Below, piece by piece: positions 1,195-15,755 of a stretch of DNA of 15,755 bases. Source of the DNA: a virus (Duplodnaviria; Heunggongvirae; Uroviricota; Caudoviricetes); the IMG/VR virus record IMGVR_UViG_2667527582_000008, positions 1-15,755 of that record. One strand, 5' to 3'. Each line of letters starts with the position of its first letter. Within the stretch, counting starts at the first letter, position 1. The notes below the pieces were generated by a model. It had not been told where the DNA came from, searched no databases, and was given only the letters and a program-made list of their open reading frames with translations. Both the position numbers and the translations under genes were made by a program.

Positions 1195-1204
1195 GGATAT
1201 AAAA

Positions 1205-2320: not shown

Positions 2321-4077
2321 ATATAGGTAAAGTGACCCAAGTAAAAGGAACCACTGTCAAAGCAAAAATAAACCATGACTTGTTCCAATCAACATACTTC
2401 CACAATGGAAAAATATTGCGTGGTATATCAATAAATGAATTTGTATTAGTTCGTAAAGGTTATCAGGACATTGTAGGTAAGATCATAGGTGAGGAAATTG
2501 TTGAGAACTTTAACATTCGTACTGATGACATTGAGCAGAAAAAATATGAAAGATTCGTTGAACTAAATATTCTCGGGTATTTTTTTGAGGGTAAATTCTA
2601 CTCTGGAATAAAATATCTCCCAATGATAAATGATAGACTTTATTTAATTTCGGATGATAAAATATCTGAAATTTATAGTTTTAGCAAAAATACAAAAACT
2701 CCGCTCATTAACATTGGCAAATCCATGCTAGAGGAATTACCAATAAACATTCCCATAAACGGTGTTTTTAATTCTCATATAGGTATTTTTGGAAATACAG
2801 GAAGTGGAAAGTCAAATACTCTAGCAAAAATATATCAATCACTTTTCAATAGAATTGAAAACAAACAACAATTGATCGATAAGTCAAATTTCGTATTGAT
2901 TGATTTCAATGGTGAATATGGGACATTAGAGAATTCCTTTCCAGAACTATGTCACTCCACAAAACTTAGCACAAAAAAAGATGGTGATAAGATATATTTC
3001 GGTGAAAAAGAATTTTGGGATGATGAACTGTTGTCAGTTTTATTCTCTGCAACCGAGAAAACACAAAAACCATTTCTTACACATTTAATAAAGAGCAAGT
3101 TAAAATATGATGACGATCTTAACACATATTTAAAAAGAACAATTGAAATAATGTTTGGAACAAATCCTCACAAAGAGACCGTTAATTTATTAAAAAGTCT
3201 ACTGCCTTATTTCGATGAGAGCGATCAACAAAAGATACGAGATGAACTATCTCTCTTTACTTGGCATTCAAACCAAGAAAAATATACACATCCTTCGAGT
3301 TGGCTTGACACTACTGCTGAAGTTTTAAAACACACTCAAGCAACATACAATAGCCAATTCCATGTTACTAGTGTATTTGATGAAATTGCTATACGTGCAA
3401 CACTGCAATTAATAAATTCTGTATCCAGAAACTATGTTCAATATGATCACATATATCCTTTGATAAACAAAATAATAGCAATGAGCTCATCTCTAGCAAA
3501 GGTTATAGAAATAAACCGCGCTCAACAAAGCTATAAACCAATATCCATAATCTCTCTCAAAGAATGCAATCAAACCATAAAAAAAACGATTCCGATGATG
3601 ATTGCGAAATGTTCCTTCATAGATCACAAATCTTCGGACAACAAAAAAGAAAGCTTTCATTTAATAATAGATGAAGCTCACAACATTCTTTCCGAAAGCT
3701 CTGTGAGGGAGGCTGAGACTTGGAAAGATTATCGACTTGAATTATTTGAGGAGATAATAAAGGAAGGTAGGAAGTTTGGTTATTTTGTAACTATTTCAAG
3801 CCAGCGACCATTTGATATATCGCCAACAATCGTATCACAACTTCATAATTATTTCATACATCGCTTGGTAAATGAAAACGACCTTTACCTTCTTAAAAAC
3901 ACCTTAAGTACATTAGATGCAGCATCCAGAACACTTATACCTACCCTTCCTCCAGGCGCATGCATAATTTCGGGAACAGCATTTCATACTCCGCTTCTTG
4001 TGCAGATCGATAGACTTTCTGAAGAAAGTGCACCGCAAAGTGACACGCTCGATCTTGAGAGTCTGTGGCGTCTTTAA
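2308..4077 (+). CDS. HerA-like P-loop ATPase, partner of the upstream SIR2 gene
   Basis: Walker A GIFGNTGSGKSNT at nt 2791-2814; Walker B / DEAH-like HLIIDEAHN at nt 3661-3684. ATG at 2308 with AGGAG 10 nt upstream is preferred over the track's TTG at 2299. Overlaps the SIR2 stop by 13 nt, implying translational coupling. About 589 aa, AT-rich. Confidence 0.8.
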   Translation: MDELNIGKVTQVKGTTVKAKINHDLFQSTYFHNGKILRGISINEFVLVRKGYQDIVGKIIGEEIVENFNIRTDDIEQKKYERFVELNILGYFFEGKFYSGIKYLPMINDRLYLISDDKISEIYSFSKNTKTPLINIGKSMLEELPINIPINGVFNSHIGIFGNTGSGKSNTLAKIYQSLFNRIENKQQLIDKSNFVLIDFNGEYGTLENSFPELCHSTKLSTKKDGDKIYFGEKEFWDDELLSVLFSATEKTQKPFLTHLIKSKLKYDDDLNTYLKRTIEIMFGTNPHKETVNLLKSLLPYFDESDQQKIRDELSLFTWHSNQEKYTHPSSWLDTTAEVLKHTQATYNSQFHVTSVFDEIAIRATLQLINSVSRNYVQYDHIYPLINKIIAMSSSLAKVIEINRAQQSYKPISIISLKECNQTIKKTIPMMIAKCSFIDHKSSDNKKESFHLIIDEAHNILSESSVREAETWKDYRLELFEEIIKEGRKFGYFVTISSQRPFDISPTIVSQLHNYFIHRLVNENDLYLLKNTLSTLDAASRTLIPTLPPGACIISGTAFHTPLLVQIDRLSEESAPQSDTLDLESLWRL

Positions 4078-4432
4078 TTCAATTGCCGCCTAATCCTCAT
4101 CTTCATCATGAAGACGCATTTGATGGAGTTGCAAAGATGGAAATAGGCCACGCCCTAAAGGCGTTGGCCTAAATTGGCGTAACATTTAAACACATGCAAA
4201 ACCATGCATCCTATAGAGGTTTATGCCTTGATAAACAGCCTCTCAAAGATTCAACCTCACCTTTTTATTACTCCATATACGGCTGTTCTCAATTTTAGAC
4301 TTTAACCTCATACGCTGGGTTGTTTAACCCTAGCTCACTGACTTCCTTTTGCTTCCTTACAGCGTACAAAATAGCAAGCCCCCCCTTATTTACCCTACCG
4401 CATTATCGATGAGTTGTATGCTCGGCATCCTT

Positions 4433-5467
4433 TTACCTCGAAGCGCGCGCTCGTAGCCCCGCCACGCCTGCCCGCTTTAGGGAGTGGTTTTCATGCAGTT
4501 GCATGATAGGCTCTAAACCGCGCCTTATCTGGTCTGGGAAGTAAAAATGCAAGTGCATAAAGTCATGCGATTTCATGCAGTATAGACATGCACTCAGGCT
4601 ATAGACATCAAAAAACCCGGCACTGGCCGGGCTTAAGTGAGCTTTTCTGTTCAGGTCAAAACAGCTTACTTTTTTTCTGTCGTCATGCGATCCTGATACT
4701 GGAGCTGAACCGGTCAGGCTCATCACGTCGTCCCGGAATCTTAACGGTAATATTTCATTCGTCCACTTCAGCATTAGATTCAGGATAAATTCACGATACA
4801 GCGTATCTGCATCATTTGTGCCTTCAATAATGCCCGGTATATGTGCTGAGCTATATCGCTCAAATTGTCTGTACTTCATCCTGAGCAGGCCGCTCAATTC
4901 GGCACCGTGGAAAATAAAAAAGTCTCGTAAAAGCTCATCGATACGCTCCTCAGTGATGCCATGATGGCAGTTTATATAAACGTTTGCCTTACGCGTGGTC
5001 GCTTGAGCCAGTACCGGCAGCTGATCTTCTTTTTCAGTAATCAGCCCGGCGAGTTCTGTGGCTGTTTCCTGTTGTTCCAGATACTCAGCCCGGAGAGCTT
5101 TCATCTCCGGCGTTACGATGCCGCCGCTCTGGTTAAGCAGTTCCCTGAACTGCGCCCGATTGTCTTTGCTGGCCTGCTCAGTTTCGGTCTGATGCTGGCG
5201 CAGAGCCCTGAGGTTCTCAATGGCTGCTTCTTCGGCCTGTCTGGCCTCCACCCAGGCCTGCATTTTTTGGTAAAGGTCGATAATTCGGGACTGCCAGTCG
5301 GAGGAAAGGCTTTTTGTCAGTTTTTCCGTCTCGCGGGCGATTTCATTTGCAGGCAAATTCATGAGCCAATCCGCATCCTGAAGCGGTTTTTTTGCCCTCG
5401 CGAGGAGTGTTACTACGTGTCCGGTTGCGGCCTGAATCTGGTTTTCCGTCAATTGTTGTTCTGTCAT
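4433..5467 (-). CDS. Satellite late-operon protein, Sid-like paralog (hypothetical); 3' end uncertain
   Basis: ATG at 5467-5465 with GGAGG 9 nt upstream, 19 nt after the delta-like stop. N-terminal half is coiled-coil-like and shares motifs with ORF 6312-7064 (FRE..Q..MTP.MK.LRAE; S..IG.V..TNDP...L..FI). The frame runs without a stop through the terminator hairpin and the cos-like GC spot, so the last ~70 codons may not be real. Confidence 0.55.
   Translation of the reverse strand: MTEQQLTENQIQAATGHVVTLLARAKKPLQDADWLMNLPANEIARETEKLTKSLSSDWQSRIIDLYQKMQAWVEARQAEEAAIENLRALRQHQTETEQASKDNRAQFRELLNQSGGIVTPEMKALRAEYLEQQETATELAGLITEKEDQLPVLAQATTRKANVYINCHHGITEERIDELLRDFFIFHGAELSGLLRMKYRQFERYSSAHIPGIIEGTNDADTLYREFILNLMLKWTNEILPLRFRDDVMSLTGSAPVSGSHDDRKKVSCFDLNRKAHLSPASAGFFDVYSLSACLYCMKSHDFMHLHFYFPDQIRRGLEPIMQLHENHSLKRAGVAGLRARASR
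4610..4631 (-). terminator. Intrinsic terminator-like hairpin on the minus strand, inside the 3' part of ORF 4433-5467
   Basis: Minus strand reads CCCGGC-CAGT-GCCGGG followed by TTTTTT: a perfect 6-bp GC-rich stem, 4-nt loop and U-tract. Confidence 0.5.
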
Positions 5468-5486
5468 ATTTTTGTTCCTCCCCAAT

Positions 5487-5759
5487 TTATTGTGCATGAC
5501 GGTCTTTAAGGGTACAGGCTGAACCGTAGCGGCCCAGTGTATGCGGCTGACGTACAAGAGAATCGCTCTGTGATTCAGGTTCAGGCGCCACTGGTTTATG
5601 GGGCTTCATAATTATCGTGTCCACACTTTCCAGGGCAGTAAATGTGCAGGAGCATTCAAGATTCTGGCACTGATACCATGAGCGTTTAACCGATGGAGCT
5701 TCATAGGCGCTGGTTCTGGCGTGTGCGACCGTGCCACATTCAGGACATTTCAGGGCCAT
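5487..5759 (-). CDS. Ogr/Delta-family zinc-finger late transcriptional activator
   Basis: 90-aa protein MALKCPECGTVAHARTSAYEAPSVKRSWYQCQNLECSCTF with the CxxC...CxNxxC zinc finger and HARTS/YxQCxN signature of P2 Ogr / P4 Delta. AGGAGG 8 nt upstream of ATG at 5759; starts 2 nt after the psu-like stop. Confidence 0.85.
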   Translation of the reverse strand: MALKCPECGTVAHARTSAYEAPSVKRSWYQCQNLECSCTFTALESVDTIIMKPHKPVAPEPESQSDSLVRQPHTLGRYGSACTLKDRHAQ

Positions 5760-5760
5760 A

Positions 5761-6315
5761 TCAGTCCCCTCCTTTTTCATTAAGCCTGTTGAGGCGGGCC
5801 AGAAAAACTTTATGTTTTGCCGGGGTGAAAATGGCTGAAGCATCAGCTCGCATTGATGCATCCACCGTTAATCCGGTTTCGTCGATAACGCTCTTATATG
5901 CTGCTGAAATTACAGGAGTACGGATTTCGGTTTGTCGGACTACAGCGGTGCGTAATATTTTCATTGCCGCCTCAAGCCCGTATGGTGCGCAAAGAAAAGG
6001 AGCCAGAGCGTCAGTGAGTGCATTACCATGCTCGCTCATGAAGTTTTCAGTTGCGCCTGTAACACAGCTTTCCAGCACAATCTGGTGAGCATAAAGACCG
6101 TCCCTGGCGGCGCAGTTAATCTGCCATTCGAGGAGAGCAATACGCTCACGAAGATTCTCAAGCTGGCTGGCATATGCTGCCGGTTTTTCTTCAGTATCCA
6201 GCAGAGCCGCCAGACGAAGTTGGCTGGTACTTTGCACATTACGTAGTGTCAGCCAGCTTTTTATCGCCGCGCGATAGTTGTTGAGAGCTTCCTTAGTAAT
6301 GTTTCCAGGATTCAT
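5761..6315 (-). CDS. psu: Psu-like protein (polarity suppression / capsid decoration family)
   Basis: 184-aa protein; segments HGNALTDALAPFL and FTPAKHKVF resemble P4 Psu as recalled from memory (not searched). Start ATG overlaps the upstream gene stop (ATGA). Confidence 0.7.
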   Translation of the reverse strand: MNPGNITKEALNNYRAAIKSWLTLRNVQSTSQLRLAALLDTEEKPAAYASQLENLRERIALLEWQINCAARDGLYAHQIVLESCVTGATENFMSEHGNALTDALAPFLCAPYGLEAAMKILRTAVVRQTEIRTPVISAAYKSVIDETGLTVDASMRADASAIFTPAKHKVFLARLNRLNEKGGD

Positions 6316-7064
6316 CCTTTCTCTTCCCCTTTAACCATGTCACGCTGTTTAAGCATCCGGGAACGCGCTGCAGGGCTGGGTGATTGCCTGGCATCCTGTA
6401 GGGCTTTATCGTCCGCATAAATGCTAATCCCCGGCAGGGCAATAACATCCGTTGAAGATACGTTACAGGACAGTGCCGGAGCGGTGAGTTGCTCGCTGAT
6501 AAATTGCTTCAGCACACTTTCGGGGTCGTTTACGGTATGAACTACGCCGATAACGGAAGAAGCGCTTCGCCCCAGAGTCATTTTCAGCAATCCAAGGATC
6601 TGAATAAGTTTCTGGCCGTGTTCCTTCATAAACTCATTCCAGAGCCACTCTGCATGAGTTTCAATCAGCCGGTTATGTTCGCTGATGTAGCGGTTTGCAG
6701 CATCCGCAGTTTTCCAGGGCAGGAATTCTTTTTCTGCGGCGTGAGCTTCAAGCAAATCTTCGAACTCATCAAGTGTTTCGCGTCCCAGGGCGATTTCTGC
6801 ACGCAGTTTTTTCATTCGTGGCGTCATATTCCCCTGATTCTCACGAAACAGGTTTCGCCATTCATCATTAAGCGCCTGCGTCTCCGTTTTTGTATCTTCC
6901 TGACGTTTACGGATAGTTTCAGTCATTGCAGCGGCTTCAGTTTGTATTCGCCGTTCTTCCTGCCAGACAGCTTTTGCTGCTTTAACTTTTTCTACCGCTT
7001 CGCGAATTTTCGGTGGGAGGGAGGGTGTAATGTTTGCATCAGGGATCTGGTTAACAGTTGTCAT
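6312..7064 (-). CDS. Satellite late-operon protein, Sid-like (candidate capsid-size determination scaffold); paralog of ORF 4433-5467
   Basis: ATG at 7064-7062 with GGAG 5 nt upstream is preferred over the track's TTG at 7097. Coiled-coil-like N-terminus; stop overlaps the psu-like start. Assignment as Sid is by position, size (~250 aa) and composition, not by a search. Confidence 0.55.
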   Translation of the reverse strand: MTTVNQIPDANITPSLPPKIREAVEKVKAAKAVWQEERRIQTEAAAMTETIRKRQEDTKTETQALNDEWRNLFRENQGNMTPRMKKLRAEIALGRETLDEFEDLLEAHAAEKEFLPWKTADAANRYISEHNRLIETHAEWLWNEFMKEHGQKLIQILGLLKMTLGRSASSVIGVVHTVNDPESVLKQFISEQLTAPALSCNVSSTDVIALPGISIYADDKALQDARQSPSPAARSRMLKQRDMVKGEEKG

Positions 7065-7165
7065 GGCTGCTCCGGTAGTGTTTTGTTGTTGTGTCAATTG
7101 TGCCGGTGCCCATACAAGCGCACTACCGATGAGGATTGTGCCAGTGACTGAACAATGACCTTGTT

Positions 7166-7177
7166 CTGGCTAGCCAG
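7166..7177. promoter_or_regulatory. Perfect 12-bp palindrome CTGGCTAGCCAG upstream of the late operon; candidate operator or activator site
   Basis: Sequence reads the same on both strands; lies about 100 bp upstream of the Sid-like start (7064) in ORF-free DNA. Confidence 0.3.
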
Positions 7178-7219
7178 AGAAAGGTGTCATGTCTGAGCTT
7201 CACCCTTCCTTTAATACAT

Positions 7220-7435
7220 ACTATTCACTACTGTTCACTTTCATAAAAGAATAGTAAATACATGTGGTTAAGGAGTGCAGGGTTTAAATAAAAGTGGTCA
7301 TCTACTGTTCATGACTGTTCACAGAGATAAATTTAACTTATATTTGTTTTTCATATAAATCGCGATATTTATTTCAGTTTATTACTGGATTTTTATTCCT
7401 CACCACTATTCACACGTATTCAACACTATTCAATA
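7220..7435. repeat. Cluster of iteron-like ACT(A/G)TTCA(C) repeats; candidate replication origin / primase-binding repeats or regulator sites
   Basis: Copies at about 7220-7228, 7229-7238, 7303-7311, 7314-7323, 7404-7413, 7416-7424 and 7425-7434, plus an inverted copy near 7148-7153, all in ORF-free AT-rich DNA. They resemble the TGTTCACC-type repeats of the P4 ori/crr regions as recalled. Confidence 0.4.
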
Positions 7436-7967
7436 TACAGTATAAAACGTGTCTTATGTCTGTTTAAAAATTCAACACTTAACCTCCCTACACTCGGTTG
7501 CATTTCAGGAAAATATCCATAAAAATGAATCTGTCTGATGCTCATTAAACACATCCGGATAAATTCGGAAGGATGCGGGTAATTTAATTTTTTTAGCCAT
7601 TAACTTAATTAATACATATGATGAACTGTTTTTTATGAACGTTTTTTGGCCCTTTTATTATTCCGGCGCTGTTTTCATCCTTATGATGTAACGCCCGGAA
7701 TGATATGGTCTGGTACAGACTTGAGCGGCGATCCTGCCTGGTGTAATAGACTTTTTTATTCTTGAAGCTCCTTATTATATTCCATGAAGGAATGATTTGT
7801 TTTTGTCCGTTTTATCCGGTTTTTAGCTGTTTTATTTTTTGAGAAGTCAATATTTCTCTCTAATTAAATAAAGCATGCGCGAGCCGCTTATATGAACATA
7901 ATAAGGAACTACCTGAATCCGGATGGAATTGTCCGGACTACTGAAAACATATTAGAGAGGTAGCGAA

Positions 7968-8092
7968 ATGCATACTATTTCCGTTTCCACCCCAGCACCA
8001 GCTGCTCCGGTGCTCCCGATTCCGACTGAGCAGGAGCGCTTCATACGATTACCTGAAGTGATGCACCTTTGCGGGCTATCCCGTTCAACCAT
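7968..8092 (+). CDS. AlpA-family phage transcriptional regulator, 5' portion only (cut by gap)
   Basis: ATG at 7968 preceded by GAGAGG; translation MHTISVSTPAPAAPVLPIPTEQERFIRLPEVMHLCGLSRSTI carries the RLPEV...GLSRSTI helix-turn-helix signature of AlpA-type regulators; runs into the N gap at 8093. Confidence 0.55.
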
Positions 8093-8102
8093 NNNNNNNN
8101 NN
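8093..8102. other. Assembly gap (10 N)
   Basis: Run of n; interrupts the AlpA-like CDS. Confidence 0.95.
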
Positions 8103-8106
8103 TAAA

Positions 8107-8140
8107 GGCTATCTTTTTCTATCGTTTGACTGTCTGGAGT
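8107..8140. repeat. 34-bp repeat, copy 1 (33/34 identical to 9449-9482)
   Basis: GGCTATCTTTTTCTATCGTTTGACTGTCTGGAGT; here it lies downstream of immunity gene 1 at a contig edge. Confidence 0.8.
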
Positions 8141-8192
8141 CCTCCACCTACTCTGCCATCAGCGCACACGATGTTTGATTATCCTTACATAC

Positions 8193-8576
8193 TTATTTTC
8201 CGTGGCCAAAATTCAGAATTCTCCCATCATTTTTGCCTATTTCTATAATAAAAACCCCACCAGCAATTTGGTCTGAGTGAATGGTACCTTCAACAACCCA
8301 ACTTGTTGTTAACTCAGTGATTTCGTATGGTTTTTCTTCTTCTGCGGCATCCTGTCCATAACGATTCTTAACATATATCTCAGCTAATTCCAATGCTATA
8401 GCTTTATTTTTAACCAAATTTCTAACGGTATATTTACCTTCACTTTCATACTTGCGCATTATTTTAATATTATTATTACACTGCGCCCATGTGTTGTATG
8501 TAAAAACAAACAAAGATACAATGACACAGTTCCTAAACAATATTTTTTTACATATTACCATGAACTCTGCAGACAT
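8193..8576 (-). CDS. Putative Rhs immunity protein for the toxin at 8548-9176
   Basis: 127-aa ORF directly after and overlapping the toxin gene; ATG at 8576 with AAAGGA 7 nt upstream; AT-rich. N-terminus is hydrophobic ([16 protein letters not shown]), which suggests a signal peptide or membrane anchor. Confidence 0.5.
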
Positions 8577-9176
8577 TAGGTAATCCTTTTCTGTTTGTTA
8601 TTTCCTTCCCGTGGTTATCTATTGCTTTAAAATTACCACTGGGCGTACCTAAATAAAATGACTTGATATTGTTATCTTTACTTTTAACTATTTTCTCATC
8701 TTTACCTGAAAATATTTCGTCCCAATATTCTCCATGACTATCTGCACCATGAGTATGATAAGCTGATACTTTCTCAGTACCATTAGGGCAAGGGCTATTG
8801 AATGGATATGATCCTTTTCTTTCTCCTCGGTTAGGTGCTGTTGAGAAATATCTGCCACTATTATCCTTACATATTAAACCAGCGAACTCTTTATCTTCGC
8901 AAATAGATTGGCTATTTATTTTATTTAAGGCGTCATATGCGGTGCTATCTATAGAATCAAATTTATCTGGACCTATCATAGCGGATAGTGTGCCGCAAAG
9001 ACCATTAGTACATGCCCCCGATTTTGCATCCTCCCACATAGATAAACCCAGGGGGTCGATGTCTGATATCGGATTCAATTGATATCCATACAGGTTCCAT
9101 CCCCCCTTCAGTCCAATCGGATCCTGAGTGATATATCGCCCCTGCAGCGGGTCATAATAGCGGTGGCGGTTGTAAT
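8548..9176 (-). CDS. Rhs C-terminal fragment: end of the conserved core plus a variable toxin domain of unrecognised family; 5' cut by gap
   Basis: Translation [44 protein letters not shown] is the conserved Rhs core end (DPxGL boundary); it is followed by ~165 aa of AT-rich, Cys-containing variable sequence ending at TAA 8548. Confidence 0.8.
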
Positions 9177-9186
9177 NNNNNNNNNN
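9177..9186. other. Assembly gap (10 N)
   Basis: Run of n inside the conserved Rhs core. Confidence 0.95.
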
Positions 9187-9187
9187 A

Positions 9188-9430
9188 TATTTGCCCGAGT
9201 ATAAATGCTCCGATATCTCTACGGATATAATTTTTGTCAGTGCAGAATTCAATTGCCAATCTAACAGCGTCTTGCCCCCCTCTTAACTGTAATACTCTGG
9301 CAGATGAAATCCTTTTCAAGGAATTGCGATCATCAAGTAAGCGAAATAATTCATCATCATTTAGTTTCTTACATTTATTATATAAACCATACTCTTTACT
9401 TGCCTTTCTTTTCTGGTATGTATTTGACAT
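9188..9430 (-). CDS. Putative Rhs immunity protein for the toxin at 9451-9935; 3' end cut by gap
   Basis: ATG at 9430-9428 with GGAGG 8 nt upstream, 21 nt after the toxin stop. Translation MSNTYQKRKASKEYGLYNKCKKLNDDELFRLLDDRNSLKRISSARVLQLRGGQDAVRLAIEF... looks like a helical (HEAT-like) repeat. Confidence 0.5.
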
Positions 9431-9448
9431 TGCAGGAACCTCCACAAG

Positions 9449-9482
9449 GGCTATCTTTTTTTATCGTTTGACTGTCTGGAGT
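9449..9482. repeat. 34-bp repeat, copy 2 (33/34 identical to 8107-8140)
   Basis: GGCTATCTTTTTTTATCGTTTGACTGTCTGGAGT; here it forms the last codons and stop of Rhs toxin 2. Confidence 0.8.
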
Positions 9483-9935
9483 GACGACAATTCCAGGCTT
9501 TCTGTGTGCTTTTTGCATCTTTAGCACTAATATCACCACAATCAATTAGTTCCTGAAGTACGTCACATCTGTCGGGTTTTTTCCCATCACTCCAGAATCT
9601 GTCATTTATTATGTCATTGACACGATCAGTTATCCCTGTGTCTGCAACATTTCCACGAGAAGCTATCATTGTTATATCTAATGCTAGTCCCGGATTATTC
9701 AATATTAGAGAGTCAAATATTCTTTGTGATGCTGTATCGTTCCACCATTTTGTCAATGCTTTTGCAGCATTATCATCTGCTTGCTGCTGTGCAGGGCTTT
9801 TGGGCCATGGAATTGGCAAGGGGAATGGTCTAGGAAAAACTTCTAACCCCAGAGGATCTGTATTCGTAACTGGATTCAACGGATACTGATAAAAATTCCA
9901 TCCCCCCTTCAGCCCAATCGGATCCTGAGTGATAT
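9451..9935 (-). CDS. Rhs C-terminal fragment: end of the conserved core plus a second, different variable toxin domain; 5' cut by gap
   Basis: Upstream codons read [30 protein letters not shown] (Rhs core end with DPxGL), followed by ~130 aa of variable sequence ending ...SRQSNDKKR. Confidence 0.8.
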
Positions 9936-9945
9936 NNNNNNNNNN
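9936..9945. other. Assembly gap (10 N)
   Basis: Run of n between the Rhs core and the truncated cbeA-like gene. Confidence 0.95.
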
Positions 9946-10594
<649 letters not shown>

Positions 10595-10659
10595 ACATTG
10601 CGTACAACCTTCCCGATTTACATTTCTGAACTTCCTCCCTTGTTTACCTATTGCGTAAT

Positions 10660-10695
10660 GCGCCTGCTACTACCCGGCAGGCGCGTTATCTTTTT
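10660..10695 (+). terminator. Rho-independent terminator after the cbtA-like gene
   Basis: GCGCCTGC-(9-nt loop)-GCAGGCGC perfect 8-bp stem followed by GTTATCTTTTT. Confidence 0.6.
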
Positions 10696-11342
10696 ACGGA
10701 CAAACAATCATGCAACCAGAAGTTGAAGTATTAACCGATCATAATGAGCTAATTTGTTCGAGCTTTATTGAACACATTGCCAACACATTAAATTTAGGAG
10801 TGGTGTACAACTAAACCTGCAGCCAAGGATGTATAGTGAGCGAAGCCCTATCAGGCCTTTTTGGTCAGTAGATAAGATTGATCTTCGTTGATAGAATTTA
10901 CTTACACCAGCTGTTACATTAAGATAATTTTTTGGTGGGAGAATGATAAGATCTTACGTAACAATTTGATTTTAATGGTGCGATAATAGGAACAAATAAA
11001 CCAACTTAACTCGTTGTTTTGCAAAAATTTATTCTTATCGGCAAATAATCCTATACACATGGCTATACACATTGGCGGGAGCGTTCAAAACTCGTCCACC
11101 TCATCGCACAACAAAATACTTTTTCTTAAGAAAAGCGTACATACTATTCACCATCATATTTTTATATGAAATATCAATATGATAGAAGTTAACCGTTAAG
11201 TGAAGAGTGAACAGCAAACCCTACATTTGATCTTAGACCATAATAAAACCCAGCATTCGCCGGGTTGGTGGTCCACTCGCATTAAATTTATGATAGGTCA
11301 AAACTATCTTTTCCTAAATTTTAACCTATTCCAAAAGAACAG

Positions 11343-11361
11343 GGCTGTGAAGTTAGCCCCA
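11343..11361 (-). terminator. Possible terminator hairpin after the standalone SIR2-like gene
   Basis: Minus strand GGGGCT-AACTTCAC-AGCCC followed by a T-rich tract (TGTTCTTTTGG), about 20 nt after the stop at 11379; stem is short. Confidence 0.35.
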
Positions 11362-11378
11362 TCCTTAACCTATTAAAT

Positions 11379-12476
11379 TTATTCAAGATATAAGGATTGC
11401 TCAATGAACTGACTGGCACCACATAAATGAACTTTAACCTCACGCTCACCAAAAAACGCCTGCCAATATTTTTTTATATCCTTTTCTTTTTCTTTATCTC
11501 TTTCATATGTTACGACTTCAATTTTAACACTTCGTTTAATCATTCGAGATAAAAGTTGTCTCATTTCAAAATCGGCATTCGGCAACGAATAACCTATGAA
11601 GATTATTTTGTCAGCTTCAGATAATTCAATACCAGCGTTCTGCCAAATTATTTTGTATTGAGGATTTGATAGATCCTTTAGAAAGGTAGGCATAATAAGA
11701 TTTGATATCAGTCTATTCTCTTTATTTACTGCGTCATGATTTTTATCACAATGCCTACATGTTGCCCCTCTCGCAACCCCTATTTTTTTATTAAACCCGA
11801 CATAAAGGCGCATGCATCGCGAACATTGTAGCCAGTTAAGTGAACCATGAATCTTCAGCAGTTTCACATTAAAACCACCTGCTCCTAACATTTCTAGACC
11901 CGGCTTTACCGTTTCGTCCCTTTCTTCTAAGGAGCTTATATAACAGCAATAATCAACAACTGCACGTCCGTGGTAGTTCCTTTGGATATAATCATACAAT
12001 GAATTATCTAGTAGAATATCCCAGTTGGTACTAATAACGCTTACAGAATCATGCTGTCTATAATTACCACCCAGCCTCTCGCTACATTTCCTCACTAAAT
12101 ACTCAGCAAAGTGGTCAATATATTCCTTACTATTCCCTTTTCTTTCCAAGATCCTCCTAATGGCCAAACCAATGATATTAAAAACAGCATCCCTTGTCTT
12201 TGTCATTTGCTCAATAGACAGACCTCTAAACTGGATATTATCCGCCAAGCACCGGTCTAAAGGAGTGAACATATCTTCAATCTGAACATCTTTAAATTGC
12301 TCACGTTTATAATATAATTGTTCAGTAAGTAAGTTTTCAAAAAGCTGAAAATCTGAACCATTAAAATAGTTTGAATTCTCTTGGTGTATTTTAAATATCT
12401 CACCCATTATTTCCGCCTGCATAGGCGCGCCAGCTTCTTTTGAAAATCCAGCGCCAAGCACAAATACAGTTTTCAT
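11379..12476 (-). CDS. Standalone SIR2-like (sirtuin-fold) protein with Cys4 zinc ribbon; candidate single-gene NAD-depleting defense effector
   Basis: ATG at 12476 with AAGAGG 6 nt upstream (track's TTG at 12482 not preferred). Translation has VFVLGAGFS at residues 5-13, VISTNWD, and KIHGSLNW followed by CSRC-(18 aa)-CRHC, the sirtuin-type zinc ribbon placement. No N- or C-terminal extra domain (365 aa). AT-rich, with terminator-like hairpins on both sides and a candidate promoter. Confidence 0.75.
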   Translation of the reverse strand: MKTVFVLGAGFSKEAGAPMQAEIMGEIFKIHQENSNYFNGSDFQLFENLLTEQLYYKREQFKDVQIEDMFTPLDRCLADNIQFRGLSIEQMTKTRDAVFNIIGLAIRRILERKGNSKEYIDHFAEYLVRKCSERLGGNYRQHDSVSVISTNWDILLDNSLYDYIQRNYHGRAVVDYCCYISSLEERDETVKPGLEMLGAGGFNVKLLKIHGSLNWLQCSRCMRLYVGFNKKIGVARGATCRHCDKNHDAVNKENRLISNLIMPTFLKDLSNPQYKIIWQNAGIELSEADKIIFIGYSLPNADFEMRQLLSRMIKRSVKIEVVTYERDKEKEKDIKKYWQAFFGEREVKVHLCGASQFIEQSLYLE

Positions 12477-12490
12477 CCACAACCTCTTAA

Positions 12491-12530
12491 ATTATATTCT
12501 GCGGTAAGATATTTGAAGATTAGCTTATTC
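12491..12530 (-). promoter_or_regulatory. Candidate sigma70-type promoter for the SIR2-like gene
   Basis: Minus strand shows TATAAT (plus 12491-12496) about 15 nt upstream of the ATG, with a weak TTCAAA -35-like hexamer about 15-17 nt further upstream; lies just after the primase terminator. Confidence 0.35.
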
Positions 12531-12541
12531 ATATGTCAAGA

Positions 12542-12566
12542 AAAAACCGGCTTCCACCGGTTTAAA
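12542..12566 (-). terminator. Terminator-like hairpin after the primase C-terminal fragment
   Basis: Minus strand AACCGG-TGGAAG-CCGGTT (6-bp stem) followed by TTTTT, immediately after the stop at 12570. Confidence 0.4.
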
Positions 12567-12569
12567 AAC

Positions 12570-12886
12570 CTATTTTGTGATTTCGAGACTGCACTTCGGT
12601 AGCCAGTCAGCATTGCATTCTTCTCTAAGTGCCAGATTGGTCTGCATTCCCTGATTGGTCCGCCGCTTCTCGTACTGCAGCCCATACTCTTTCAGCATTA
12701 ACGGCAGCCCCTTGCCAAACATGGTCAGACTGAGCGTATTTTTATAGCCGTTGGCTTCCATGTAGACCAGATAGGCATGGTAAAGGTATGTACGTGGCTG
12801 GCGCGGGACAATATTGGCGTTCCCCATAAACATGCCGTTGGTGTCGGGTAATGCCTCAAGATAGCCACAAAAATCAAATGCTGGAT
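12570..12886 (-). CDS. C-terminal fragment of a P4-family (alpha-like / D5-like) primase-helicase; 5' cut by gap
   Basis: Translation ...PRQPRTYLYHAYLVYMEANGYKNTLSLTMFGKGLPLMLKEYGLQYEKRRTNQG... shows the aromatic-rich ...Y..Y.....NG......S...F...L...G pattern typical of the C-terminal domain of P4-type primases; stop TAG at 12570. Confidence 0.55.
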
Positions 12887-12896
12887 NNNNNNNNNN
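12887..12896. other. Assembly gap (10 N)
   Basis: Run of n; the track ORF 12570-13190 that spans it fuses two unrelated proteins and is an artefact. Confidence 0.95.
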
Positions 12897-13190
12897 ACCA
12901 CCCTGTTGCAGCAGGATCAGCCACGGACTCTGCCCGCCTGCAAGCTGCGTGGCCACGTCGGTGAACTGCGCAGGCAGCATACGCATGGCGGCTTTATACT
13001 GCCCGACGGAAATCCCCGCTTTCTGTGCAGCCAGCGCCTGCCGGCTCATCGACTGTTCAACGACTGCCGCTGTTTTTTTCGCATCACTTTCCGTACCGGA
13101 AAAATGACGCCTGACTCTGGCCATCTGCTCGTCAAATCTGGCCGCATCCAGACTCAAATCAACGACCAGATCGCCTACCGGTTCAGCCAT
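12897..13190 (-). CDS. H: Tail tape measure protein, N-terminal 98 codons only (cut by gap)
   Basis: MAEPVGDLVVDLSLDAARFDEQMARVRRHFSGTESDAKKTAAVVEQS...QFTDVATQLAGGQSPWLILLQQGG matches the lambda gpH N-terminus as recalled; ATG at 13190. Confidence 0.9.
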
Positions 13191-13620
13191 ACCGGACTCC
13201 TCCTGCGATCCCTTCTGATACTGTCATCAGCATTACGTCATCCTCCGTCATGTCCGCCACATCCGGGGAAGCGGGGATAACTTCATTCCCGTCCGGGCCA
13301 AAACGAACGCCTCCGGCAAGCCCTGCCGCTTTCTGCATCAGCACATCATCTTCAGGCTCTTCGTCAGCCTCACGCCGGTTCAGCAGACTGAAATCCAGCG
13401 GATGCATCTCCGGATCGCTGAAAAACAGGCTGAGCACGGTGTACGTCAGCCCGGAAAAGTGCATATCCAGCAGAACATCATGAAAATAATGGGTACTGTA
13501 AAAGCGGTGCCAGTCGGCATACTCCGTGGATGACATCCCGGCAAGCATGGCACGCCAGTCGGGTCGCCCCATCTCACGCGCCAGTTTCAGGGCAAAACTC
13601 AGCTCACCGTCGAACACTTT
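13183..13620 (-). CDS. T: Tail assembly chaperone T segment, expressed as a G-T fusion by -1 programmed frameshift
   Basis: ORF in the -1 frame relative to G, opening at the slippery site and ending overlapping the H start; translation ends ...MFDGELSFALKLAREMG..., lambda T-like. Confidence 0.8.
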   Translation of the reverse strand, partial: KVFDGELSFALKLAREMGRPDWRAMLAGMSSTEYADWHRFYSTHYFHDVLLDMHFSGLTYTVLSLFFSDPEMHPLDFSLLNRREADEEPEDDVLMQKAAGLAGGVRFGPDGNEVIPASPDVADMTEDDVMLMTVSEGIAGGVRYG

Positions 13621-14021
13621 CCCGCAGAAACAGGCTCTGCAGGCCCGGCGTCCTCTGCCTGTTCAGGAGCATCATTCACCACAAACTCATACATACCGGA
13701 CAGCCGGTACACCACGTTTTCAGCATGAGAAATTGCCTCTGTGGGCCAGGTGGTAAGCACTTCCTGCTCAATCTGTTTAACGGCTTCATTCATGGACGGC
13801 ATCTGCGTCTTCTGCGGATGGTTATGCCACAGGGACATCGCCACCAGAAACGCGCCGGTTCTGATGGCGTCTTCCACAGTAAACTTCCGGTTGCTGTCTG
13901 ACTCCGCCTGTTCTGCCTGCCGTTTCATCAGGGCGAGATGCTCAATACGCTGCAGGGCTGACAGTTCAGAAAGCGTGACGGTCACGCCGTTATGTTCAAA
14001 TGATTCGGTTTTCAGGAACAT
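13599..14021 (-). CDS. G: Tail assembly chaperone G
   Basis: 140-aa protein MFLKTESFEHNGVTVTLSELSALQRIEHLALMKRQAEQAES..., near-identical to lambda gpG as recalled. Confidence 0.9.
   Translation of the reverse strand: MFLKTESFEHNGVTVTLSELSALQRIEHLALMKRQAEQAESDSNRKFTVEDAIRTGAFLVAMSLWHNHPQKTQMPSMNEAVKQIEQEVLTTWPTEAISHAENVVYRLSGMYEFVVNDAPEQAEDAGPAEPVSAGKCSTVS
13617..13623 (-). promoter_or_regulatory. Programmed -1 ribosomal frameshift slippery heptamer GGGAAAG (G to G-T)
   Basis: Minus strand reads G GGA AAG about 16 nt upstream of the G stop codon; the T frame opens exactly here. Confidence 0.75.
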
Positions 14022-14036
14022 CGCTGACTCTCCGGA

Positions 14037-14777
14037 TTAACTGTCGGTGACAGTGATTTCTGCAACCGCAGCAAGTTCACCATTACCGGATACAACCGGA
14101 ATGTTGACCTTACCTGCAGCAACGCCTTTCACGGTGATGGTTATACCACTGACCGACACGGTGGCTTTTGTTTTATCCGCTGACACCGCACGGAAGCTCT
14201 TGTCAGTTGCGCCCTCCGGCTGGAATGCCACGGTCAGCGTGGTGCTCTGCCCTTTCACCACCGAGGAGCTGGCAGGCGTCACGGTCATACCGGTTGCCGC
14301 CGTCACCGTACTGCGATCTTCTGCCATTGACGGACGGCCCACATTGGTGACCTTCACCGTACGGGTGATCACTTCCTTCGCCGTCACCGCCTTACCGATA
14401 CTGCTGACCCAGCCACGGAACACATCGACCGTGCCGTTCGGGAAGCGGATTTTATAGGCACGGGTATCACCTTCATTAAACCACGCCAGCAGCGCCTGCT
14501 GCCCCTGCTCTCCGGGCATCCACGCCAGCGTGAAGCTGGTATCTCCGGCGGATTTCTGCCCCTGCCCGGTCGCGGTCCAGTCCGCATCTTCATCATCGAG
14601 ATAACTGTCGTCATAGGACTCAGCGGTCAGTTCGCCGGGCGTCAGGTCTTTAACTTTTGCCAGACGCGACCAGTCAACGTCTGAAAGCGGGTTCGCATAA
14701 GGGTCACCGCTCCCCTTATAAACCCACAGGGTGGTCCCGGCACCTTTCACCGGCATTGTAGGATTTGGTACAGGCAT
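14037..14777 (-). CDS. V: Major tail tube protein V
   Basis: 246-aa protein from ATG at 14777: [45 protein letters not shown]..., lambda gpV-like including the C-terminal Ig-like region. Confidence 0.9.
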
Positions 14778-14784
14778 AGCGTCC

Positions 14785-15180
14785 TCACATTTCATAGGTA
14801 ATGACATAAGTCAGATCGGCTGAACTCCACAGGCCCGCATCATCGTCGCGCCGGTAGTCATAGCCACTGGCCACCATACTGGTGATCAAATCTGACAGTG
14901 CCGGGATATCGCTCATCACCGGATAAATCCGGGACTCCATCCACGCATCCAGCTCTGAATCCGGCACCTGAGCAGGCAGGAAAACTTCGATATGCAGCTC
15001 CGCCTGCCAGGTATCGCTGTCCAGCTCTTCGCCCGTGTATTCAGCGCCGGTGAGATAAACGGCAATTGCCGGAAAATCTTCCTCATCAAAAACAGCGGGG
15101 CGACCATCAAAAAGCGTCGCCCCGGTGTCATGCTTCTCCAGTGCATCCAGTACGGCTGCACGGAGTTCAGTATGTTTCAT
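14785..15180 (-). CDS. U: Tail terminator protein U
   Basis: 131-aa protein [52 protein letters not shown]..., lambda gpU-like. Confidence 0.9.
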
Positions 15181-15755
15181 CGCTTTATTACCATCCTCAG
15201 TTGATGCTGCAGCGCATAGCCCAGCTCTTTCGGAAGACGCTCACGCCGTATCCGCTCAATATTCTGTTTAAACGCCGTGGTCAGCGGCACCGCCATCGGG
15301 ATTTTCACCACATCAATGGGGTAACGGTTTTTCCCGGCCACACGCTGCATGACATGCCAGCGGCCATTTTTCAGTTGCTGAATAAACGCGCCGGGAATAC
15401 GACGGTTTCCCACCACAAGCACGCTGCCGCCACCTTTCAGGGCTGAACGCTGCCCCTTTTTACGACGCCTGCGTCGGGACAGGACAATCCGCGCGTTACC
15501 CAGCTTTATTACGGGCAAATCCCCCCGGTTAACCCTGATTCTGGCCTGCGGATTTTTGACCGTGGCCCTTTTCAGCCTGGCCCTTTCCTTTACCAGTTTC
15601 CGGCGTACCTTTGTCTCACGGGCAACCTGTGACGCCGACTGCGATATCGCGGATGAAGCAACGCGGTTAATGGCCATTGCGGCGGCACCGGGCACCGCCG
15701 TTCTGCTGATACGGCTGAGGTTTTCAACGGCCTGCTCAAGACCTTTTATGACCAT
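15177..15755 (-). CDS. Z: Tail completion protein Z
   Basis: 192-aa protein M(V/A)IKGLEQAVENLSRISRTAVPGAAAMAINRVASSA..., lambda gpZ-like; start codon lies at the window edge and the stop overlaps the U start. Confidence 0.9.
   Translation of the reverse strand: MVIKGLEQAVENLSRISRTAVPGAAAMAINRVASSAISQSASQVARETKVRRKLVKERARLKRATVKNPQARIRVNRGDLPVIKLGNARIVLSRRRRRKKGQRSALKGGGSVLVVGNRRIPGAFIQQLKNGRWHVMQRVAGKNRYPIDVVKIPMAVPLTTAFKQNIERIRRERLPKELGYALQHQLRMVIKR

What the first reader, a model, noticed from the sequence alone, without database searches (positions are those of the whole stretch)
11379..12530. Standalone AT-rich SIR2-like gene with sirtuin-type zinc ribbon next to a P4-family primase: candidate undescribed single-gene defense effector
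Seen in sequence: a 365-aa monocistronic ORF with GAGFS near the N-terminus, a TNWD motif and HGS followed by CxxC-(18)-CxxC, its own RBS and a candidate promoter, terminator-like hairpins on both sides, and AT-rich composition unlike the flanking primase and TA genes. From established knowledge: SIR2-fold NADases are effectors in Thoeris (ThsA), DSR, SIR2-HerA and SIR2-associated short Argonaute systems, but those SIR2 proteins carry extra domains or partner genes. This one has neither and keeps the zinc ribbon of housekeeping sirtuins while sitting in mobile-element cargo. Inference: a compact NAD-depleting abortive-infection or toxin module, possibly of a family not yet described as defensive.
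Basis: partly seen in the sequence, partly recalled or inferred. Interest (0 to 1): 0.8.

Follow-up and report, generated by a model that had tools for sequence, protein, structure and literature searches.

The report
Standalone zinc-ribbon SIR2 in P4 satellite
A 365-residue sirtuin-like (SIR2) enzyme gene sits alone as end cargo of a P4-type phage satellite in E. coli; it belongs to a widespread, highly conserved, unnamed family that is probably a one-gene anti-phage NAD-consuming defence, but no experiment shows this yet.

Summary
A 365-aa ORF lies on the minus strand at 11379-12476. It carries GAGFS, TNWD, HGS and CxxC-18-CxxC, its own RBS, flanking terminator-like hairpins and low GC (0.36 against about 0.50).

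The gene is the last gene of a P4-like satellite at thrW, between the alpha primase and attR. That interval is a published minor defence hotspot. The same gene rides with Hachiman, DRT3 or SIR2-HerA in the main hotspot.

It occurs in 13 of 5426 complete E. coli genomes. Across 78 genomes from many phyla it has no conserved partner gene. It lies in islands with type I R-M, AbiTii and HEPN/RES genes, and in 13 of 76 loci beside a complete SIR2-HerA pair.

No curated model (Pfam, NCBIfam, PADLOC) reaches its threshold, and I found no paper naming the family.

Best reading: a single-gene NAD+-consuming abortive-infection effector, a new variant of SIR2-based immunity. The function is inferred, not shown.

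The parts
11379..12476 (-). CDS of the standalone zinc-ribbon SIR2-family protein (365 aa, WP_057688149.1). Predicted catalytic residues are N151, D153 and H210; zinc ligands are C218, C221, C240 and C243.
   Evidence: ORF and motifs. AF2 model with pLDDT 85.5. Fold matches. hhalign to SIR2-HerA SIR2s at 97% probability. Exact look-up.
12483..12488 (-). Ribosome-binding site AAGAGG, 6 nt upstream of the ATG.
   Evidence: Read directly.
12511..12539 (-). Candidate sigma-70 promoter: TTGACA, 17 nt, TCAAAT. It overlaps the T-tail of the primase terminator.
   Evidence: Read directly. The consensus scan did not report it because the -10 is weak. Inference only.
12544..12563 (-). Terminator-like hairpin ending the primase (alpha) transcription unit. 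It insulates the SIR2 gene from upstream.
11333..11360 (-). Short hairpin (GGGCT/AGCCC) plus a T-rich tail, 20 nt after the stop codon.
   Evidence: Read. Conserved in enterobacterial satellites.
11247..11266 (-). Stronger terminator-like hairpin (8 pairs plus a T run), 113 nt after the stop.
   Evidence: Conserved.
10996..11246 (-). Conserved non-coding tail of the satellite between the SIR2 terminator and attR, with TTCAC-type repeats. It may be the P4 cis replication region. It is not evidently part of the SIR2 unit.
   Evidence: Nucleotide conservation up to attR in five other satellites. No Rfam hit. No conserved ORF.
10976..10991 (-). attR, a degenerate copy of the 3' end of tRNA-Thr (thrW): TCCTATTATCG-CACCA. 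It is the right border of the P4-like satellite.
   Evidence: Homology among satellites stops exactly here. thrW sequence and short matches. Breakpoint of E. coli matches at query 1013-1059.
12570..12886 (-). C-terminal end (Pox_D5 domain) of the P4 alpha primase-helicase, cut by the N gap at 12887. It is the gene upstream of the SIR2 gene.
   Evidence: Pfam. Full-length 777-aa primase in gap-free relatives.

Best explanation
The gene encodes a minimal, stand-alone SIR2-family enzyme. It is accessory cargo in the secondary defence hotspot (alpha primase to attR) of a P4-like phage satellite integrated at thrW.

**Most likely mechanism.** It is a single-gene abortive-infection effector. It is held inactive in uninfected cells. 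On infection it consumes NAD+ through the N151/D153/H210 site, by hydrolysis to ADP-ribose and nicotinamide, as in SIR2-HerA, ThsA and DSR2. This stops phage replication.

**Sensing.** There is no separate sensor domain or partner. Sensing must therefore reside in the protein's own large helical small domain (about residues 20-134) and the zinc ribbon (218-243). Trigger-induced oligomerisation or relief of small-domain autoinhibition are the likely routes.

**Shown.** The fold, motif conservation, single-gene organisation, mobile and defence-island context, rarity, and absence from curated families.

**Inferred.** The NADase chemistry, the infection trigger, autoinhibition, and the defence phenotype.
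For: **Fold.**
- The AF2 model has pLDDT 85.5 and pTM 0.88.
- Foldseek against PDB puts SIR2 of E. coli SIR2-HerA first, at E 2e-12.
- A profile-profile match to SIR2-HerA SIR2s scores 97% probability, E 8e-11. GAGFS, TNWD and HGS align with their GAGxS, TNYD and HGS.
- The equivalent residues N163/D165/H212 are given as the putative catalytic residues of PsSIR2, and mutating the catalytic residues abolished protection from T7 (PMC11472057).
- The motif residues are invariant in 42 diverse homologues.

**Context.**
- It is the last gene before attR of a P4-like satellite in gap-free relatives.
- The primase-att interval is reported as a minor P4 defence hotspot holding 7% of P4 systems (PMC13586616).
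- In that paper, 8 of 11 incomplete and 6 of 8 unannotated P4 hotspot cargos protected against phages.
- The same gene combines with Hachiman, DRT3 or SIR2-HerA in the main hotspot.
- It is in 13 of 5426 complete E. coli genomes and in 78 of about 185,000 species representatives spread over many phyla.
- Neighbours include SIR2-HerA (13 of 76 loci), type I R-M, DUF4917, HEPN/RES, NERD-UvrD, AbiTii, a Pycsar-type cyclase and integrases.
- A HepT (HEPN RNase) fusion exists.

**Single-gene status.** No neighbour family recurs beyond HerA, and no conserved small ORF lies next to the gene.
Against: - There is no experimental evidence of any kind.
- A 365-aa protein with no recognisable sensor leaves the trigger unexplained.
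- The retained zinc ribbon is said to be essential for deacetylation in classical sirtuins, and the same paper reports it absent from bacterial defence SIR2s. This argues that the enzyme may act on a protein substrate rather than simply burning NAD+.
- The family is unusually conserved for an immune protein. Median pairwise identity is 64% in A1. It is 52% among loci where the adjacent HerA is only 33%. That fits interaction with a conserved cellular component better than an arms race.
- Scores against defence SIR2 models are low: at most 33 bits in PADLOC, against 222 bits for the window's genuine SIR2-HerA SIR2.
- The published hotspot statistics mostly concern the main hotspot, not the primase-att one.
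Confidence: 0.58

Rival explanations
1. It is a protein-directed sirtuin-type enzyme, either an ADP-ribosyltransferase or a deacylase. It uses the retained zinc ribbon and small-domain cleft to bind a specific phage or host protein, or a nucleic acid. Any immunity or satellite benefit would come from target modification, not from bulk NAD+ depletion.
For: - The four-Cys ribbon sits exactly where sirtuins have it, 8 residues after the catalytic His. It aligns with Sir2-Af2 (LHGSxxxLxCxxC...CxxC). It is invariant in A1 and present in 110 of 130 full-length cluster representatives.
- The paper read reports that bacterial defence SIR2s lack the zinc finger and links it to deacetylase activity.
- Very high conservation suggests a conserved target.
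Against: - The core motifs are of the SIR2_2/defence type (TNWD, GYSLPxAD), not sirtuin-type. There is no GIPxFR loop, no TQNxD and no FGE loop.
- Pfam SIR2 scores 17.3 bits, below its gathering score of 24.
- No linked macrodomain or substrate gene, as in SirTM operons, is seen.
Confidence: 0.2
2. It is a companion or accessory of SIR2-HerA. It would be a second SIR2 that cooperates with, backs up or is activated by a SIR2-HerA system encoded nearby or elsewhere in the genome, rather than an autonomous system.
For: - 13 of 76 loci have a complete SIR2+HerA pair within -16 to 2684 bp. The pairs appear in at least five arrangements and across divergent HerA clades, with median identity 33%.
- In three loci the gene follows herA directly on the same strand, with gaps of 9, -16 and 308 bp.
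- E. coli 65COLEC carries SIR2-HerA and this gene on the same satellite.
- The window's own genome has a SIR2-HerA satellite at 1205-4077.
- The closest solved structures are the SIR2-HerA SIR2s.
Against: - 63 of 76 loci have no HerA within 8 kb.
- 12 of the 13 E. coli carriers lack both SIR2-HerA types that I searched by DNA.
- The gene travels equally with Hachiman or DRT3.
- Orientation and order relative to SIR2-HerA vary, including divergent and convergent layouts.
- Every adjacent HerA already has its own cognate SIR2.
Confidence: 0.1
3. It is non-defensive cargo. It could be a satellite or host-physiology factor, for example one that modulates the helper phage or host metabolism, or a decaying orphan. 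It would have no anti-phage role.
For: - No phenotype is known.
- Some loci carry split or truncated copies (L045, L057, L062, L076).
- Some immediate neighbours are ordinary metabolic genes.
Against: - Strong purifying selection acts over the full length in more than 1000 homologues.
- The gene has an intact promoter, RBS and terminator.
- It sits in a defence hotspot and in defence islands.
Confidence: 0.1
4. It is a housekeeping CobB-like protein deacetylase.
For: - Some sources label relatives 'NAD-dependent SIR2 family protein deacetylase'.
- The zinc ribbon is present.
Against: - It is in 0.24% of complete E. coli genomes, always inside a satellite.
- There is no conserved synteny.
- It scores below the Pfam SIR2 threshold.
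- CobB ranks far below the SIR2-HerA SIR2s in Foldseek (E about 1e-4 against 2e-12).
Confidence: 0.02

Closest known systems
SIR2 subunit of the SIR2-HerA (Nezha / Gao_Her) anti-phage system
   Same: - The profile match is 97% probability.
- It shares the GAGxS, TN(Y/W)D, HGS and G(F/Y)S...D motifs.
- It has a comparably large helical small domain.
- It is often encoded next door.
   Different: - Identity is only about 15%.
- Its HMMs score at most 33 bits here, against 222 for a true member.
- No HerA partner is present in 63 of 76 loci.
- The target carries a four-Cys zinc ribbon, which the paper read reports as absent from the SIR2-HerA SIR2s.
- The target family is far more conserved.
Canonical sirtuins (Sir2-Af1/Af2, Sir2Tm, CobB, SIRT5)
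   Same: - The Rossmann core matches.
- The catalytic His is followed 8 residues later by CxxC...CxxC.
- The start of the cofactor loop is similar: GAGFSxEAGAP against GAGISAESGIP.
   Different: - There are no GIPxFR, TQNxD or FGE motifs.
- It scores below the Pfam SIR2 gathering threshold.
- It has about 100 extra residues of helical insertion.
- It is accessory, mobile and rare, not housekeeping.
Other SIR2-based immune effectors: ThsA (Thoeris), DSR1/DSR2, SIR2-APAZ (SPARSA), Avs5 SIR2-STAND, KomC (Kongming), human FAM118B
   Same: - The SIR2 catalytic core is shared.
- NAD+ consumption as the effector logic is expected, by inference.
   Different: All of these have a fused sensor or regulatory domain (SLOG, a large C-terminal domain, APAZ, STAND) or obligatory partner genes (ThsB, pAgo, KomA/B). 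This protein has neither.
Cargo of the P4-like satellite primase-att minor defence hotspot (PMC13586616)
   Same: The gene occupies exactly the interval between the alpha primase and attR. It combines freely with different main-hotspot systems.
   Different: The gene itself is not among the systems named or tested in the text of that paper. Its supplements could not be read.

Membership tests
SIR2 superfamily (fold level) | Rossmann-type NAD-binding fold, structurally similar to solved SIR2 domains | tested here: met
   [not shown]
SIR2 superfamily (fold level) | Gly-rich loop GAGxS, an Asn/Asp motif and a catalytic His (HG), all conserved | tested here: met
   G8-S12, N151, D153 and H210 are invariant in 42 homologues. 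They are in register with SIR2-HerA SIR2.
Canonical sirtuin deacylases (Pfam PF02146, CobB-like) | Score above the Pfam SIR2 gathering threshold | tested here: not met
   17.3 bits against a threshold of 24, covering residues 201-298 only.
Canonical sirtuin deacylases (Pfam PF02146, CobB-like) | Four-Cys zinc ribbon after the catalytic His | tested here: met
   C218, C221, C240 and C243 are invariant. They align with the Sir2-Af2 ribbon.
Canonical sirtuin deacylases (Pfam PF02146, CobB-like) | Cofactor and substrate loops GIPxFR, TQNxD and FGE (recalled from sirtuin literature; the FGE loop is also named) | tested here: not met
   The family consensus has GAPTQ, STNWD and IMPTFxKD at these positions.
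Canonical sirtuin deacylases (Pfam PF02146, CobB-like) | Housekeeping distribution with stable synteny | tested here: not met
   It is in 13 of 5426 E. coli genomes, always in a satellite. Neighbourhoods vary across 76 loci.
SIR2-HerA (Nezha) system | Adjacent herA gene forming a two-gene operon | tested here: not met
   None is present in the window contig or in gap-free relatives. HerA is adjacent in only 13 of 76 loci, and each of those has its own cognate SIR2.
SIR2-HerA (Nezha) system | Strong match to SIR2-HerA SIR2 profile models | tested here: not met
   The best PADLOC SIR2 score is 33.1 bits, against 222.2 bits for the window's own SIR2-HerA SIR2. NCBIfam SIR2_antiphage scores 16.5 bits against a cut-off of 500.
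Thoeris ThsA | SIR2 fused to a SLOG domain, with a TIR-domain ThsB gene nearby | tested here: not met
   The protein is a single domain of 365 aa. No TIR neighbour family recurs.
DSR1/DSR2 | Large protein (about 1000 aa or more, recalled from the literature) with a C-terminal sensor region | tested here: not met
   It is 365 aa. The family is about 350-450 aa throughout.
SPARSA / short pAgo-associated SIR2 | SIR2-APAZ fusion with an adjacent short Argonaute | tested here: not met
   There is no APAZ region. Aga_SIR2 models score at most 25 bits. No Argonaute family recurs among neighbours.
P4-like satellite defence-hotspot cargo | Located in a variable locus of a P4-like satellite, here between the alpha primase and an att site | tested here: met
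   Gene order in L001, L080 and L088. The attR border is defined by the alignment. The hotspot is described in PMC13586616.
P4-like satellite defence-hotspot cargo | Confers resistance to phage infection | not testable with these tools
   This needs plaque assays. None were found in the literature searched.

The most novel reading that the evidence does not exclude
This may be the founding member of a distinct class of SIR2 immunity. The class would be a sensor-less, zinc-ribbon-bearing minimal SIR2. It would either recognise and modify a conserved protein or nucleic-acid target, by ADP-ribosylation or deacylation, instead of merely depleting NAD+. Or it would be a free-standing SIR2 that plugs into SIR2-HerA-type machinery in trans. 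Either reading would explain three features together: unusually high conservation across phyla, the retained sirtuin zinc ribbon, and repeated independent linkage to SIR2-HerA.
Probability: 0.2. Interest if true: 0.8.

Novelty: new variant of a known kind. Interest (0 to 1): 0.55.

Why it matters
SIR2 NADases are among the most widespread immune effectors. Every characterised one is controlled by a fused sensor or by a partner protein.

A 365-aa SIR2 that works alone would be the smallest such system. It would pose a clean question: how does a bare SIR2 domain sense infection and stay off otherwise?

The retained zinc ribbon bridges housekeeping sirtuins and defence NADases. It could show how one evolved from the other.

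The family is large. There are 220 cluster representatives at E <= 1e-30 and about 5500 at E <= 1e-3. It is unannotated, so naming it would add to defence-system catalogues.

Its recurrent linkage to SIR2-HerA hints at cooperation between NAD-targeting systems. That is relevant to phage counter-defences that rebuild NAD+.

Tried and rejected
**Sequence and family searches that gave nothing**
- phmmer of the protein against PDB sequences gave no hit. The profile search gave only insignificant hits.
- Rfam on the whole window gave nothing.
- tblastn against 50,697 phage genomes gave no match.
- Plasmids held only six distant relatives at 24-26% identity.
- BFVD viral structures returned only giant-virus sirtuins.
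- Ten distant family representatives scored only weakly against PADLOC SIR2 models, at most 38 bits.

- The afdb50 fold library was not available.
- ARAGORN finds no tRNA in the window or in L001, because only a partial thrW copy is present.
- A direct-repeat search for attL/attR in L001 gave only chance repeats. The border was found by multi-satellite alignment instead.
- A search for the P4 crr repeat TGTTCACC was inconclusive.
- The PADLOC scan of 138 immediate neighbours returns only family counts. I could not compute the fraction of neighbours that are defence genes.

**Partner-gene hunts**
- Clustering of 1094 neighbour ORFs found nothing recurrent except HerA.
- Clustering of 919 small flanking ORFs found nothing recurrent.

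**Rejected hypotheses**
- *The CbtA/CbeA pair is the gene's context.* It lies beyond attR, in a CP4-6-like element.
- *The window's SIR2-HerA (1205-4077) is on the same satellite.* In strain S21 that satellite sits at ssrA and has nothing after its primase. Linkage across the N gaps is artefactual.

**Literature**
- Seven full-text searches and nine papers read found no description of this family.
- Accession searches returned nothing.
- This is absence within the held library, not proof that the family is undescribed.
Full report
**1. The observation**

The window is a pseudo-scaffold. Four N10 runs at 8093, 9177, 9936 and 12887 split it into five contigs. It comes from E. coli assembly GCA_001413685.1 (L082). 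Sister assemblies join the same 2.9-3.3 kb contig to quite different sequences. Only 9946-12886 is therefore truly contiguous with the finding.

Within that contig the described ORF is real. It runs on the minus strand from the ATG at 12476 to the TAA at 11381-11379 and encodes 365 aa.

The expression signals are as follows:
- An AAGAGG RBS lies 6 nt before the ATG.
- A TTGACA-17-TCAAAT candidate promoter lies just upstream (read; the scan did not call it).
- A terminator-like hairpin closes the upstream primase gene at 12563-12544.
- Two hairpins follow the stop codon, at 11360-11333 and 11266-11247.

GC is 0.362 for the gene, against 0.489 for the primase fragment and 0.509 for ykfI.

**2. 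What the protein is**

Curated sequence models barely see it:

| Library | Best model | Score | Threshold or comparison |
|---|---|---|---|
| Pfam | SIR2 (PF02146) | 17.3 bits | gathering score 24 |
| NCBIfam | SIR2_antiphage | 16.5 bits | cut-off 500 |
| PADLOC | best SIR2 model | 33 bits | 222 bits for the window's own SIR2-HerA SIR2 (1205-2320) |

An AlphaFold2 model built on 42 homologues is confident, with pLDDT 85.5 and pTM 0.88. It is clearly a SIR2 fold.

- Foldseek puts the SIR2 subunits of E. coli SIR2-HerA first at E 2e-12. Classical sirtuins follow at about 1e-5.
- A profile-profile comparison with 14 SIR2-HerA SIR2s gives 97% probability (E 8e-11). It puts GAGFS, TNWD and HGS in register with their GAGxS, TNYD and HGS.
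- The corresponding N163, D165 and H212 are given as the putative catalytic residues of PsSIR2, and mutating the catalytic residues abolished protection from T7 (PMC11472057).

In that alignment the CxxC...CxxC segment is an insertion absent from the SIR2-HerA proteins. The same paper states that the zinc finger and FGE loop of archaeal and eukaryotic sirtuins are absent from bacterial defence SIR2s.

Here the ribbon sits 8 residues after the His and aligns with that of Sir2-Af2. It is invariant in the family alignment. It is present in 110 of 130 full-length cluster representatives.

The protein therefore has a defence-type (SIR2_2-like) catalytic core and keeps the sirtuin zinc ribbon.

**3. 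Where it sits**

Complete E. coli genomes split the contig in two. The yafW/ykfI part is common. The SIR2 gene plus primase part is found in only 13 of 5426 genomes, always annotated 'hypothetical protein'.

In gap-free relatives the gene is the last gene of a P4-like satellite:

| Locus | Strain or assembly | Gene order |
|---|---|---|
| L001 | LR-21-1 | int, DRT3ab, delta-psu-sid, ..., icd, primase, SIR2, then host yagP' |
| L080 | 65COLEC | thrW, int, SIR2-HerA, delta-psu-sid, ..., primase, SIR2, then yagP' |
| L088 | gap-free sister assembly GCA_001413005.1 | Hachiman..., primase, SIR2, then CP4-6-like cbtA/cbeA |

An alignment of six satellites shows near-identical DNA from the stop codon for about 400 nt, up to TCCTATTATCG-CACCA. 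That sequence is a degenerate copy of the thrW 3' end. Beyond it the sequences diverge completely. This is attR, at window 10976-10991.

The primase-att interval is described as a minor defence hotspot of P4 satellites, holding 7% of their systems (PMC13586616). That study found that 8 of 11 incomplete and 6 of 8 unannotated P4 hotspot cargos protected E. coli from phages. The text of that paper does not name this gene, and its supplements are not held.

**4. The family and its neighbourhoods**

The 90%-clustered protein database returned 1033 homologues. Nearly all are 360-390 aa and 55-60% identical to the query. They span Gamma- and Betaproteobacteria, Nitrospira, Desulfotalea and Bacteroidota.

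The exhaustive profile search of 50%-identity representatives found 220 hits at E <= 1e-30, 1794 at <= 1e-10 and 5515 at <= 1e-3.

A scan of one genome per species found 78 loci. They lie in Proteobacteria, Bacteroidota, Bdellovibrionota, Acidobacteriota, Verrucomicrobiota and Planctomycetota.

I called 1094 neighbouring ORFs and clustered them. No family recurs except one, present in 13 of 76 loci. No small ORF recurs next to the gene outside closely related satellites. The unit is a single gene.

The recurring neighbour is HerA, always with its own cognate SIR2.
- The SIR2-HerA pair lies -16 to 2684 bp away.
- It can be upstream or downstream, on the same or the opposite strand.
- The HerA proteins belong to divergent clades, with median identity 33%.

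Other neighbours include type I R-M subunits, DUF4917, another SIR2_2 protein, HEPN/RES, NERD-UvrD, 8xMP membrane proteins and KTSC.

Two further proteobacterial contexts fit the same picture:
- In Pectobacterium the gene lies in an integrase-bounded island beside AbiTii. In one of the two places shown, a Pycsar-type cyclase and an nSTAND ATPase lie further upstream.
- In Pseudomonas aeruginosa it lies in an integrase-bounded island.

Rare members carry an N-terminal HepT (HEPN RNase) domain. No phage genome encodes the family. Plasmids carry only distant relatives.

**5. Mechanism**

*Shown:* a SIR2 fold with an intact, invariant N/D/H site; single-gene organisation; mobile, patchy distribution; embedding in defence loci.

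*Inferred:* the protein consumes NAD+ on infection, like SIR2-HerA, ThsA and DSR2, and causes abortive infection. With no sensor domain, control must be intrinsic. PsSIR2 is autoinhibited by its small domain, and this protein has a comparably large helical small domain plus the ribbon. The most economical model is trigger-dependent relief of autoinhibition, perhaps coupled to oligomerisation. I put this at about 0.58.

Two observations do not fit comfortably.
- The zinc ribbon, tied to protein deacylation in sirtuins, is strictly kept.
- The family is far more conserved than its neighbours. Median pairwise identity is 64% in A1, against 23% for the SIR2-HerA SIR2s (A2). It is 52% against 33% for HerA within the same loci.

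Both suggest binding to a conserved macromolecule. This is the basis of rival 1, a protein-directed ADP-ribosyltransferase or deacylase (0.2).

The repeated linkage to SIR2-HerA supports rival 2, a companion of SIR2-HerA (0.1). Against it:
- 63 of 76 loci lack HerA.
- 12 of 13 E. coli carriers lack both SIR2-HerA types I searched for by DNA.
- The gene travels equally well with Hachiman or DRT3.

A housekeeping CobB-like role is excluded by the distribution.

**6. Comparison with known systems, and novelty**

The protein works most like the SIR2 effectors of SIR2-HerA, Thoeris and DSR. It fails the membership tests of each:
- no HerA operon and low model scores;
- no SLOG or ThsB;
- not a large DSR protein;
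- no APAZ or pAgo.

It is also not a canonical sirtuin. It scores below the Pfam threshold, lacks the GIPxFR, TQNxD and FGE motifs, and is not housekeeping.

It does fit the class of cargo in the P4 primase-att hotspot.

I found no paper naming the family in seven full-text searches and nine papers read. Its accession numbers return nothing. This is absence from the held library only.

I rate it a new variant of a known kind: SIR2-based immunity in a minimal, partner-less, zinc-ribbon form.

**7. Verdict**

Interest is 0.55. It is a good, cheap experimental target rather than a surprise. It would rise to about 0.8 if the zinc ribbon signals target modification, or if the SIR2-HerA linkage proves functional.

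Noticed in passing
window 1-8092: This is a second, different P4-like satellite. It carries int (1-1194), SIR2 (1205-2320) and HerA (2299-4077) in the main int-to-delta hotspot, then delta, psu and sid (5487-7097, minus strand). In E. coli S21 the same element sits at ssrA and has no gene after its primase. Its apparent linkage to the finding is an artefact of scaffolding.
   Followed up: yes
window 8093-8102, 9177-9186, 9936-9945, 12887-12896: N10 gaps join unrelated contigs. ORFs that cross them are chimeras, for example 12570-13190, which fuses a tape-measure N-terminus to the primase C-terminus. Sister assemblies of the same project join the target contig to different partners.
   Followed up: yes
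L017, L020, L021, L024, L025, L027, L030, L031, L035, L039, L049, L073, L079 (target at about 8001-9100 in most): In 13 of 76 loci a complete SIR2+HerA pair lies within 2.7 kb of the target family member. The pairs appear in at least five arrangements and across HerA clades only about 33% identical. This is more than defence-island chance would suggest. No functional link is established.
   Followed up: partly
alignments A1 and A2; loci as above: The target family is unusually conserved for a putative immune gene. Median pairwise identity is 64% in A1, with 107 invariant columns. The SIR2 partners of HerA show 23%, and HerA in the same loci shows 33%. This is unexplained.
   Followed up: partly
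P0165 (539 aa), P0164, P0167: Rare family members carry an N-terminal extension of 150-175 aa. In P0165 it is a HepT-like HEPN RNase domain (Pfam E 2e-14). P0164 has a weak PIN_12 hit below threshold. P0167 has no hit.
   Followed up: partly
window 4433-5557 (minus strand): A 344-374 aa ORF lies between herA and delta. The precomputed annotation of L082 labels it Psu family, while my Pfam scan of the 374-aa version found nothing. It may be a third Psu/Sid-like paralogue in the satellite.
   Followed up: no
window 8103-9935: These are fragments of polymorphic-toxin (Rhs-type) loci. The called genes of L082 include Ntox34, DUF4329 and Imm-NTF2-2 immunity genes.
   Followed up: no
window 9946-10594 and 10595-10975: The yafW'/ykfI (CbeA/CbtA type IV TA) end of a CP4-6-like element abuts the satellite's attR. 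Two elements are therefore integrated in tandem at thrW.
   Followed up: partly
window 10996-11246; L005 about 9280-9330: The conserved non-coding tail between the SIR2 terminator and attR contains TTCAC-type repeats, expanded to CTCTTCAC x3 in the Pantoea satellite. It may be the P4 cis replication region (crr). The repeat search was inconclusive.
   Followed up: partly
L009 6588-7952; L017 6901-7944; L025, L029: Other SIR2-superfamily genes lie directly beside the target in some loci: a 455-aa SIR2_2 protein and DUF4917 proteins. SIR2 paralogues tend to cluster.
   Followed up: no
window 12897-15755: These are lambda-like tail genes on an unrelated contig: tape-measure N-terminus, tail assembly proteins, a tail tube with a Big_2 domain, and tail proteins U and Z.
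   Followed up: no
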